11,341 nucleotides of DNA from a virus (lineage: Duplodnaviria; Heunggongvirae; Uroviricota; Caudoviricetes): positions 1 to 11,341 of the IMG/VR virus record IMGVR_UViG_2537561932_000025; one strand, 5' to 3'. Each line of letters starts with the position of its first letter. Position 1 is the stretch's first letter. A program made the position numbers and the translations under genes. This document shows positions 9,241-10,042 of the stretch, in pieces. A model generated the notes under the pieces. That model did no database searches. It was not told the origin of the DNA and saw only the letters and a list, made by a program, of their open reading frames with translations.

Positions 9241-9329
9241 CCACAGCCTCACACTCGATGAGGCCTGTTCATTTCTCAAGATATCCAGACCTACCATTGC
9301 TGCATCAATGCGGCTTTTTATTGCCTGAT

Positions 9330-9345
9330 TTGCAGGTTCGATTCC
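9330..9345 (+). other. tRNA T-arm-like fragment (ttgcaggttcgattcc) with no tRNA 5' half upstream
   Basis: Contains the canonical GGTTCGATTCC T-stem/loop signature and matches the corresponding stretch of E. coli tRNA-Arg (argW) as I recall it. The upstream sequence is not tRNA-like, so this is a remnant or att-type partial copy. Confidence 0.5.
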
Positions 9346-9364
9346 CTATTCGGAGATAGCACTC

Positions 9365-9565
9365 ATGCAACACGAACTACAGCCTGATTCACTGGTTGAT
9401 TTGAAATTCATCATGGCTGATACTGGCTTCGGTAAGACCTTCATCTATGACCGGATTAAGTCCGGCGACCTGCCTAAAGCCAAAGTTATCCACGGACGAG
9501 CAAGATGGTTATATCGTGACCATTGTGAATTCAAAAATAAGCTCTTAAGCCGCGCCAATGGGTAA
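9365..9565 (+). CDS. torI: AlpA/Xis-family excisionase-like protein, TorI-like (recombination directionality factor)
   Basis: 66-aa protein. The segment LVDLKFIMADTGFGKTFIYDRIKSGDLPKAKVIHGRARWLYRDHCEFKNKL fits the AlpA/Xis winged-helix pattern (..TG.S..TIYR.I..G.FP....G.R...W...D...W). Its length, its position at the prophage end next to an argW-type att remnant and the absence of an adjacent integrase all match what I recall for TorI of the KplE1 (CPS-53) prophage. Confidence 0.65.
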   Translation: MQHELQPDSLVDLKFIMADTGFGKTFIYDRIKSGDLPKAKVIHGRARWLYRDHCEFKNKLLSRANG

Positions 9566-9638
9566 AATAGCGGGTAAAATATTTTTCACATCTAAAAAAC
9601 ACCATTCCAATCAATCCCCTGCCGCTTCAAGTAGATGT

Positions 9639-9653
9639 CTGCAGGGGACACCA
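9639..9653 (+). other. tRNA 3' acceptor-end fragment (ctgcaggggacacca): probable att core copy marking the prophage boundary
   Basis: Matches the 3' terminal 15 nt of tRNA-Arg (argW), including the discriminator base and CCA, with no tRNA body upstream. This is typical of the duplicated 3' tRNA segment produced by integrase-mediated insertion at a tRNA gene. Confidence 0.55.
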
Positions 9654-10042
9654 GATACCCTTCAAACGAAATCTACCTTCACCCCGTAAAAGATAGGTTT
9701 GGCAGCACACTTGCCTTATATCTACTCATTTTTACTGCAACAGGTTGAAATCTCAGCACTGTCAGAAAGCGCTGATGACTAAACAGCCCTGGGCCGGGCG
9801 ATGTAACCATCACACAGAATCCTGATAGCGAAATATGGCGTGACTCGATACTTCACTCCGCAATGCATTCCTTGATGAATTCGCAGGACCGTGATACACG
9901 GGACAGGTCGCTGAATGACGACAATGTCCTGGAAATCAGCGAACCGCGCATCTGAAGTACATTTGAGCGACTGTACCAGAACATGAATGAGGCGTTTGGA
10001 TTAGGTGATTATTAGCAGGGCTAAGCACTTTAGTATTATTAT

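What the first reader, a model, noticed from the sequence alone, without database searches (positions are those of the whole stretch)
9320..9660. Split tRNA-Arg 3' end flanking a TorI-like excisionase gene, with no integrase at this prophage end
Two non-overlapping pieces that together reconstitute the T-arm and acceptor 3' end of an argW-type tRNA (ttgcaggttcgattcc at 9330-9345 and ctgcaggggacacca at 9639-9653) are separated by about 290 bp containing the AlpA/Xis-family gene. Neither is preceded by a tRNA 5' half. A normal att duplication gives one repeated core. Two successive portions of the tRNA on either side of an excisionase gene suggests nested or sequential integration events, or an unusual att organisation in which the directionality-factor gene lies inside the attachment region. 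The excisionase is also separated from any integrase, an inverted module layout I recall for the KplE1 element.
Basis: partly seen in the sequence, partly recalled or inferred. Interest (0 to 1): 0.5.

Follow-up and report, generated by a model that had tools for sequence, protein, structure and literature searches.

The report
Split argW copy around prophage excisionase
This is the ordinary right end of a well-studied kind of E. coli prophage inserted in the argW tRNA gene, but the short tRNA-like piece in front of its excisionase gene is a real, strongly conserved and so far unexplained element found across this whole phage family.

Summary
Window 9330-9345 and 9639-9653 are exact copies of argW gene positions 46-61 and 61-75. 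Together they tile the last 30 nt of the tRNA, separated by 293 bp that carry torI. No tRNA gene is present in the window.

The second piece is the known attR crossover core of the KplE1/HK620/Sf6 recombination module. Bacterial DNA starts there. The intact argW and intS sit 44 kb away at the other end of a P22-like prophage (E. coli 503440). The xis-attP-int layout is published.

The first piece is not a scar of nested integration in this strain. The same "T-loop box" (CAGGTTCGATTyCC, about 28 nt before the xis ATG) is present in free phages HK620 and Sf6, in K-12 KplE1, and in relatives from other enterobacterial genera. It persists in excisionases only 39% identical to TorI. Its GTTCGATT block is invariant where synonymous sites are 59% identical, so it is under selection.

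The box lies outside the 135-bp attR that suffices for excision in vitro. I read it as a tRNA-derived cis-element, probably regulating torI, but its function is not shown. The locus is ordinary; the box is a modestly interesting undescribed detail.

The parts
9248..9298 (+). 5' remnant of a P22-type xis gene (LTLDEACSFLKISRPT...), without a start codon. It marks the swap of a P22-type int/xis module for the argW-type module.
   Evidence: Sub-threshold HTH_17 hit, E=0.0013. The same sequence has an intact start, MESHSLTLDEACAFLKIS, in phage g341c. It is shared with K-12 and HK022-type phages.
9299..9319 (+). Intrinsic terminator (GCTGCATCAATGCGGC plus a T-run) that closes the early-left operon just before the box.
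   Evidence: Terminator scan and RNA fold. A different hairpin sits at the same place in HK620.
9330..9346 (+). Piece 1, the 'T-loop box'. It is an exact copy of argW gene nt 46-61 (T-stem 5' strand, T-loop and the start of the T-stem 3' strand). Family consensus is CAGGTTCGATTyCC.
   Evidence: Searches give the identity to argW. Searches show conservation across genera and xis clades. HK620 annotates this stretch as a predicted pI promoter and cII site.
9352..9356 (+). Shine-Dalgarno sequence (GGAGA) of torI.
   Evidence: Read from the sequence; conserved in the alignments.
9365..9565 (+). torI, the recombination directionality factor (excisionase), 66 aa.
   Evidence: ORF list. 100% identical to PDB 1Z4H 'Tor inhibition protein'. 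RefSeq annotation as torI.
9542..9653 (+). Phage part of the attR that suffices for excision in vitro: the P arm up to and including the core.
   Evidence: The attR-IHF2 primer of Panis 2012 maps to 9542-9561.
9560..9580 (+). Two direct GGGTAAAAT repeats (9560-9568 and 9572-9580), the P-arm repeats annotated in HK620 attP. They are probably IntS arm-type sites.
   Evidence: HK620 repeat_region attP maps here.
9615..9622 (+). TCCCCTGC, the perfect inverted partner of GCAGGGGA inside the core, with an 18-nt spacer.
   Evidence: The pair is conserved and co-varies with the tRNA variant across 114 unique regions.
9639..9653 (+). Piece 2, the attR copy of the crossover core (CTGCAGGGGACACCA = argW nt 61-75). 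The phage-bacterium junction is here.
   Evidence: Prophage-free genomes match window 9639-9800 directly after the tRNA-Arg body. The attL copy is at L029 10062-10076. The published core is CTGCAGGGGACACCAT. HK620 'attP core' maps here.
9654..11341 (.). Bacterial flank. It contains a terminator-like hairpin at 9701-9715 (probably the argW terminator) and a cscB-like MFS transporter gene at 10094-11341 on the minus strand.

Best explanation
Window 9320-9660 is the right (attR) end of a KplE1/HK620/Sf6-type recombination module in a P22-like prophage inserted in argW.

Piece 2 is the attR copy of the 15-16-bp crossover core. It is the original 3' end of argW, left behind when the phage supplied a new one at attL. 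No integrase lies nearby because in this family attP sits between xis (torI) and int, so integration sends them to opposite prophage ends. These points are shown.

Piece 1 is a separate, family-wide cis-element, which I call the T-loop box. It lies between an intrinsic terminator and the torI ribosome-binding site. It reproduces the argW sequence lying immediately 5' of the crossover core in attB, so the phage carries the two halves of attB split around xis and the P arm. Its sequence descends from the tRNA and has been kept by selection. These points are also shown.

The box is not part of the DNA needed for excision in vitro. I infer, without direct evidence, that it regulates torI expression or the availability of the recombination proteins. 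The most likely mechanism (about 35%) is that it is bound by a factor that also recognises the T-loop side of attB, namely the core-binding/catalytic part of IntS. The origin I favour is an ancient duplication of the tRNA-like attP core on both sides of xis, followed by complementary decay. This is suggested by the data, not shown.
For: Identity and tiling: the pieces are argW nt 46-61 and 61-75, and 0 of 1000 randomised windows reached 15 nt.

Junction: prophage-free E. coli genomes match window 9639-9800 directly after the tRNA body.

Other end: intact argW and intS lie at 2110001-2111394 of NZ_CP025881.1, with the same core.

Known module: TorI equals PDB 1Z4H. The 16-nt core and the xis-attP-int layout are published. 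HK620 and Sf6 are 98% identical over window 9310-9653.

The box is family-wide:
- It is identical in K-12.
- It is present in Citrobacter-like, Serratia, Pantoea, Edwardsiella and Erwinia lineages, 26-29 nt before the ATG (35 nt in Serratia).
- It is present in the g341c clade (xis 51% identical) and in phiEt88 (39% identical).

Selection: GTTCGATT is invariant in 15 of 15 motif-bearing lineages, while xis third codon positions are 59% identical. Those lineages were chosen for carrying the motif.

Descent from the tRNA:
- Several lineages also keep T46/T47.
- Serratia and Pantoea extend the match to nt 64.
- Outside E. coli, the attP C-site next to the core is itself TTCGATGTA. The T-loop therefore occurs on both sides of xis.

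The box tracks the target, not the excisionase: in phiEt88 the P'-arm repeats change from GTTCG to CCGATGTAACC and the arm-type sites change from GGGTAAAA to GGGCATAA, but the box and core are unchanged.

Not needed for excision: the attR used in vitro starts at 9542.

Most of the other 29 lie in phage tRNA genes.
Against: No experiment or computation here shows any protein binding to the box.

As an IntS core-type half-site, GATTCC is a weak match (4 of 6) to the inverted-repeat half-site GRTGTC that I inferred from C and C'/B'. The box has no inverted partner.

Roughly a third of lineages have lost the box by clean deletion and still look like complete modules, so it is dispensable.

Every lineage found targets the same tRNA. 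I could therefore not test whether the box follows the target tRNA.

The 100% conservation figure comes from lineages chosen because they have the motif.

The duplication-and-decay origin is one of several scenarios and leaves no diagnostic intermediate. No E. coli genome has argW fused to the torI leader.
Confidence: 0.6

Rival explanations
1. Nested or sequential integration in this prophage. Two elements inserted one after the other at argW using different crossover points, leaving two successive tRNA portions around a stranded excisionase gene.
For: The two pieces tile the tRNA with a 1-nt overlap. A remnant of another excisionase gene lies just upstream at 9248-9298. The prophage is mosaic and carries IS elements.
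Against: The identical arrangement is present in non-integrated phage genomes (HK620, Sf6, Kapi1). It is also in K-12 and in distant genera and xis clades. TorI is the cognate directionality factor of IntS in this module. The upstream xis remnant is P22-type, a module-swap scar unrelated to argW.
Confidence: 0.03
2. Extended att site. The attachment region spans the whole torI gene, and piece 1 is a recombination-protein site needed to assemble the excisive or integrative complex.
For: The box is the attB sequence adjacent to the crossover. It is conserved together with the core across clades.
Against: A 135-bp attR that starts at window 9542 recombines with attL in vitro (PMC3509656). About a third of lineages lack the box. 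Integration (attP x attB) was not covered by that assay, so a role there is not excluded.
Confidence: 0.08
3. CII-dependent pI promoter, as annotated in the HK620 GenBank record. TTGC-N-TTGC at 9321-9333 would bind CII and drive int expression for lysogeny. The tRNA likeness would then be incidental.
For: HK620 features 'promoter, phage integration' and 'cII protein' binding site map to window 9320-9358 and 9321-9333. Sf6 carries a similar note.
Against: The repeats are spaced N5, not the canonical N6. The first TTGC is polymorphic (G/A/T) within E. coli, including K-12. Neither TTGC is conserved in other genera, while GTTCGATTCC is. No sigma-70-like -35/-10 pair is found. Such a transcript would also express the excisionase. 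intS has its own mapped promoter.
Confidence: 0.08
4. TorI operator. The box contains GTTCG, the pentamer of the five published TorI sites, and lets TorI autoregulate its own gene.
For: Published TorI sites are the 8-mers CAGTTCGC, TAGTCCGC, CAGTTCGT, TGGTTCGC and CAGATCGT (mapped on L029). TorI already represses PintS. Some lineages have CAGTTCGA. Two lineages carry tandem copies of the box.
Against: phiEt88 keeps the box although its P'-arm repeats, and probably its excisionase specificity, differ. E. coli has only one site, whereas TorI binds cooperatively to arrays. The tandem copies are spaced 16 or 13 bp, not 10 bp. Conservation extends over ATTyCC, beyond an 8-mer TorI site.
Confidence: 0.12
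5. RNA-level element in the torI leader. This would be a T-arm mimic or an anti-Shine-Dalgarno segment (UUyCC pairing with GGAG) that limits torI translation or directs RNA processing.
For: The element keeps a fixed position 3-13 nt upstream of the SD. Pairing of UUyCC with GGAGA is possible in 83% of cells, against 60% or less in slid controls. Serratia and Edwardsiella versions can form a T-arm-like hairpin.
Against: RNAalifold predicts no consensus structure. There is no covariation beyond shuffles. Single-sequence folds are not better than shuffled sequence. The E. coli version cannot form the T stem. The invariant GTTCGA part is not explained by anti-SD pairing. The tRNA position that pairs with G53 is the variable one.
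Confidence: 0.12

Closest known systems
KplE1 (CPS-53) / HK620 / Sf6 / Kapi1 recombination module at argW (IntS + TorI; Panis et al. 2007, 2010, 2012; PMC2951348, PMC3509656, PMC8787464)
   Same: The TorI protein is identical. The core is the same (CTGCAGGGGACACCA[T]). The P-arm GGGTAAAAT repeats and the xis-attP-int order match. intS lies next to argW at the far end. The attL carries the five TorI 8-mers. Window 9310-9653 is 98% identical to HK620 and Sf6.
   Different: Nothing essential differs. The host flank is the csc cluster instead of dsdC, and position 16 of the core differs at attR (G instead of T). In the papers and annotations I could read, the box upstream of torI is not described as tRNA-derived. 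HK620 labels it a predicted pI/cII site.
Lambda att/int/xis regulation (pI promoter inside xis, sib retroregulation)
   Same: It is a lambdoid early-left operon ending in the excision gene. A tyrosine integrase with arm-type and core-type sites is used. A regulatory element lies just upstream of or inside xis.
   Different: In lambda, int and xis are adjacent on one side of attP. Lambda pI has TTGC-N6-TTGC and a mapped start. Here the spacing is N5, the sites are not conserved, and intS has its own autoregulated promoter.
tRNA-targeting integrases whose attP carries the 3' part of the tRNA (P4, P22, 186, HP1; sublocation classes of Williams 2002, from my own knowledge)
   Same: The phage copy restores the tRNA 3' end. 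In non-E. coli lineages attP resembles argW from the T-loop to the CCA end.
   Different: Those systems carry one contiguous identity block. Here a second copy, of the sequence 5' of the crossover, sits about 300 bp away on the other side of the excisionase gene.

Membership tests
KplE1/HK620-type argW recombination module | TorI-type recombination directionality factor | tested here: met
   The 66-aa product of 9365-9565 matches PDB 1Z4H over its full length, E=6.6e-43. It is 100% identical to HK620 HkaC and Sf6 gp18.
KplE1/HK620-type argW recombination module | Duplicated core CTGCAGGGGACACCA(T), equal to the 3' end of argW, at both prophage ends | tested here: met
   The attR copy is at window 9639-9653. 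The attL copy is at L029 10062-10076, inside an intact argW. The identity is 15 nt here; position 16 is T at attL and G at attR.
KplE1/HK620-type argW recombination module | IntS integrase directly downstream of argW, in the same orientation, at the opposite prophage end | tested here: met
   intS is at NZ_CP025881.1 2110237-2111394, just after tRNA-Arg at 2110001-2110075.
KplE1/HK620-type argW recombination module | Five TorI 8-mer sites (GTTCG/GTCCG/GATCG) in the attL arm overlapping PintS | tested here: met
   Found by sequence at L029 10082-10109 and 10145-10172, using the published coordinates relative to the intS ATG. Binding was not tested.
KplE1/HK620-type argW recombination module | TorI/IntS/IHF-dependent excision activity | not testable with these tools
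   This needs in vivo or in vitro recombination assays. The prophage also carries IS100 and IS2 insertions.
Intact or split tRNA gene | Cloverleaf detectable, with a 5' half present | tested here: not met
   ARAGORN finds 0 genes. No Rfam tRNA hit at E<=10. The sequence upstream of each piece is unrelated to argW.
Lambda-type CII-activated promoter (pI/pRE/paQ) | TTGC-N6-TTGC flanking a -35 region, with a -10 about 17 bp downstream | tested here: not met
   Spacing is N5 (9321-9324 and 9330-9333). The first repeat is polymorphic. It is not conserved outside E. coli. The scan finds no sigma-70-like pair.
TorI binding site | 8-mer of the type YRG(T/A)(T/C)CGY, usually in phased arrays | tested here: inconclusive
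   AGGTTCGA matches 6 of 8 positions, including GTTCG. It is a single copy in E. coli. The box persists where the P'-arm repeats have changed. No binding data exist.
Functional attR (minimal) | The sequence must lie within the fragment sufficient for excisive recombination | tested here: not met
   For piece 1, the published 135-bp attR begins at window 9542, and piece 1 ends at 9345. Piece 2 lies inside that fragment.

The most novel reading that the evidence does not exclude
The T-loop box is a functional mimic of the tRNA (B) side of attB that the phage keeps in cis to its own P arm. IntS molecules anchored on the GGGTAAAAT arm sites just after torI could reach back with their core-binding domain to the box and loop out the 200-bp torI gene. 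This would repress the excisionase, or act as a pseudo-substrate that holds attR inactive until read-through transcription or TorI/IHF bending releases it. It would be a new layer of excision control in the xis-attP-int class of modules. It would also explain why a phage conserves both halves of its bacterial target split around its directionality factor.
Probability: 0.15. Interest if true: 0.6.

Novelty: new member of a known kind. Interest (0 to 1): 0.35.

Why it matters
For genome annotation, a tRNA fragment next to an excisionase with no integrase nearby is the expected signature of the attR end of HK620/Sf6/KplE1-type prophages. It is not evidence of a degraded or composite element.

For the biology of site-specific recombination, the torI promoter and its control are still described as uncharacterised (PMC2951348). 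Control of the directionality factor is proposed there as the main switch for excision in this class. A 13-16-nt element that is the best conserved non-coding block of the module besides the crossover core, and that copies the bacterial target, is an obvious candidate for that control. It is easy to test by mutagenesis in tractable phages (HK620, Kapi1) or in K-12 itself.

Tried and rejected
1. Hidden tRNA gene. ARAGORN and a permissive Rfam scan found none.

2. Chance match. Rejected by randomisation.

3. Conserved RNA structure in the torI leader. Single-sequence folds were not better than shuffles. RNAalifold gave no consensus. A hand-drawn anti-SD helix showed no covariation beyond shuffles.

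4. Sigma-70 promoter in 9100-9800. None was found.

5. Small upstream ORF or N-terminal extension through the box. Reading frames and start codons are not conserved between lineages. This was checked by eye. g341c annotates an in-frame extension, but E. coli has a stop codon.

6. Inverted partner of the box elsewhere in attP or attL. None was found.

7. Chromosomal remnant with argW nt 1-61 fused to the torI leader, which would document a site-specific origin. It is absent from 5,426 complete E. coli genomes.

8. Relatives that target a different tRNA, to test whether the box tracks the target. All xis homologues with a recognisable core target argW-type tRNA-Arg. Pseudomonas homologues have a different layout.

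9. Menouni et al. 2013 (PNAS; Rho control of torI expression). The paper is not held in the library, so it is cited from memory only.

10. E. coli F404, as a possible ancestral state with the two pieces contiguous. It is instead a GGA-microhomology deletion of torI.

Full report
**1. The observation**

The window is an exact match to E. coli strain 503440, NZ_CP025881.1.

The argW gene of that genome (L029 10002-10076) reads ...GGGCTAATTGCAGGTTCGATTCCTGCAGGGGACACCA. The two pieces are gene positions 46-61 and 61-75. They therefore tile the last 30 nt of the tRNA in order, sharing one base.

In 1000 randomised windows the longest exact match to argW never exceeded 14 nt. ARAGORN finds no tRNA in the window. 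A permissive Rfam scan of 9000-10000 finds none either. The 293 nt in between contain a 66-aa ORF at 9365-9565. Its product is identical to TorI, PDB 1Z4H.

**2. What piece 2 is**

In E. coli genomes that lack a prophage here, window 9639-9800 follows the body of tRNA-Arg directly. Bacterial DNA therefore resumes at 9639, and piece 2 is the attR copy of the crossover core.

The literature gives the KplE1 core as CTGCAGGGGACACCAT (PMC2951348). HK620's annotated "attP core" maps to the same bases.

At the other end of the same prophage, 44 kb upstream, lie an intact argW and then intS. The core is followed there by the five published TorI 8-mers and the intS promoter region.

The element is a P22-like prophage with IS100 and IS2 insertions. 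The missing integrase at this end is expected. In this family attP lies between xis and int, so integration places them at opposite ends (PMC2951348, PMC8787464).

**3. What piece 1 is not**

It is not a product of a second integration in this strain. Window 9310-9653 is 98% identical to the free phage genomes HK620, Sf6, Kapi1 and others. K-12 KplE1 has the same box.

It is not part of the DNA required for excision. The attR used successfully in vitro starts with a primer that maps to 9542-9561 (PMC3509656).

HK620's GenBank record labels the stretch as a predicted CII-dependent pI promoter. That reading is weak for four reasons:
- The TTGC repeats are spaced N5, not N6.
- The first repeat is polymorphic within E. 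coli, K-12 included.
- Neither repeat is conserved in other genera.
- No sigma-70-like hexamer pair is found.

**4. What piece 1 is**

I collected xis homologues from species-representative genomes and viral contigs. In most lineages a block with consensus CAGGTTCGATTyCC sits 26-29 nt before the xis ATG (35 nt in Serratia). It lies between an intrinsic terminator and the Shine-Dalgarno sequence. These lineages include Escherichia, Citrobacter-like, Serratia, Pantoea, Edwardsiella and Erwinia.

The block also precedes the much more distant excisionases of Salmonella phage g341c (51% identical to TorI) and Erwinia phage phiEt88 (39% identical).

In 15 motif-bearing lineages GTTCGATT is invariant, while third codon positions of xis are only 59% identical. 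Those lineages were selected for having the motif. Even so, in the five-way alignment the box and the core are the only long invariant non-coding blocks. The box is therefore under purifying selection.

The box is dispensable. About a third of unique upstream variants lack it, several by a clean deletion between short CYGG repeats.

Two lineages have independent tandem duplications of the box, with periods of 16 and 13 nt.

Of these, 51 precede TorI-like genes. Most of the other 29 lie in phage tRNA genes.

**5. Descent from the tRNA**

Several observations argue that the box descends from argW rather than converging on it:
- The match ends where the core begins.
- Many lineages retain T46/T47 upstream of the box.
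- The Serratia and Pantoea versions run on to nt 64.
- Outside E. coli, the attP half-site immediately left of the core is TTCGATGTA. The attP there matches argW nt 54-75 with three mismatches at nt 60-62.

The T-loop thus occurs on both sides of the xis/P-arm segment. The pattern fits an ancient duplication of a long tRNA-like attP core around xis. Complementary decay would then follow: the left copy lost the crossover part and the right copy lost the T-loop part. This is a suggestion only. No intermediate was found, and no E. coli genome has argW fused to the torI leader.

**6. Function (inference)**

An excisionase operator is attractive because the published TorI sites share GTTCG. However, phiEt88 has different P'-arm repeats (CCGATGTAACC) and different arm-type sites (GGGCATAA), yet the same box and core. 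The box therefore follows the target tRNA, not the excisionase.

RNA-level models found no support.

What the box shares with every lineage is the attB sequence. My best guess, at about 35%, is that it is recognised by the core-binding part of the integrase, or by another factor that reads the T-loop side of attB, and that it modulates torI expression or attR availability.

Two points argue against this guess. GATTCC is only a weak match to the half-site GRTGTC that I inferred from the inverted repeat around the overlap. The box also has no inverted partner.

The torI promoter is described as uncharacterised in PMC2951348. From memory, Menouni et al. 2013 reported Rho-dependent control of torI transcripts. 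I could not read that paper.

**7. Comparison and verdict**

The locus passes every testable membership criterion for the KplE1/HK620/Sf6 argW recombination module. It fails those for a tRNA gene and for a lambda-type CII promoter.

It is an ordinary new member of a known kind. The two proposed causes, nested integration here and an att site that includes the gene, are not supported.

The remaining point of interest is modest but real. A tRNA-derived box, conserved as strongly as the crossover core and apparently undescribed, lies in the uncharacterised control region of the excisionase gene.

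Noticed in passing
window 9248-9298: Remnant of the 5' end of a P22-type xis gene (LTLDEACSFLKISRPT; sub-threshold HTH_17 hit, E=0.0013), without a start codon. Phage g341c has the intact start MESHSLTLDEACAFLKIS fused almost directly to the box. It looks like the scar left when a P22-type int/xis module was replaced by the argW-type torI-attP-intS module. 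K-12 KplE1 carries it too.
   Followed up: partly
window 9615-9622 and 9641-9648: Perfect 8-nt inverted repeat TCCCCTGC / GCAGGGGA linking the P arm to the core. It is 8 of 8 in 72 of 114 unique attP/attR regions. The spacer is almost always 18 or 24 nt. It co-varies with the tRNA variant (GTAGGGGA with CCCCCTAC; GCAGGGAA with TTCCCTGC). It could be a protein-site pair or, in RNA, an acceptor-stem-like hairpin ending in CACCA at the 3' end of torI transcripts.
   Followed up: partly
L005, L012-L016, L217 (attP region left of the core): Outside E. coli, the attP half-site next to the core is TTCGATGTA. The attP there resembles argW from the T-loop to the CCA end, with three mismatches at tRNA nt 60-62. 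In E. coli and Salmonella phages it has drifted to GTAGATGTC or TTAGGTGTC.
   Followed up: partly
L004 3001-3060 (E. coli F404, NZ_OY754364.1): A lambdoid prophage next to dsdC has lost torI and the P arm through a deletion between two GGA triplets. The result joins ...ggttcgattccctattcGGA directly to CACCAT of the core. That prophage can no longer make its excisionase.
   Followed up: yes
L005 2480-2520; L112-L114; L116: Independent tandem duplications of the box in Erwinia-type lineages: CAGGTTCGATTCCCGT x2 (period 16) and GTTCGATTCCCGC/GTTCGATTACC (period 13).
   Followed up: partly
window 9299-9319: An intrinsic terminator sits immediately upstream of the box. HK620-type phages have a different hairpin at the same place. 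torI would therefore need antitermination, read-through or an unmapped promoter in the 45 nt that follow.
   Followed up: partly
window 9558-9689: A 43-aa ORF, homologous to HK620 hkaB and Sf6 gene 17, overlaps the torI stop, the arm repeats and the core. It has no Pfam match. It is probably an annotation artefact of the conserved att DNA.
   Followed up: partly
L001 5600-7401 and 9978-11206 (NZ_CP025881.1): The source prophage carries IS100 (istAB) and IS2 insertions in the nin/replication region, with a split replication gene. It is probably defective even though both att ends and intS/torI are intact.
   Followed up: no
window 9654-11341: The bacterial flank after attR is the csc sucrose-utilisation cluster (cscB-like transporter at 10094-11341, minus strand), not dsdC as in K-12. 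dsdX is truncated further on. A terminator-like hairpin at 9701-9715 is probably the native argW terminator, now positioned to end torI read-through transcripts.
   Followed up: no
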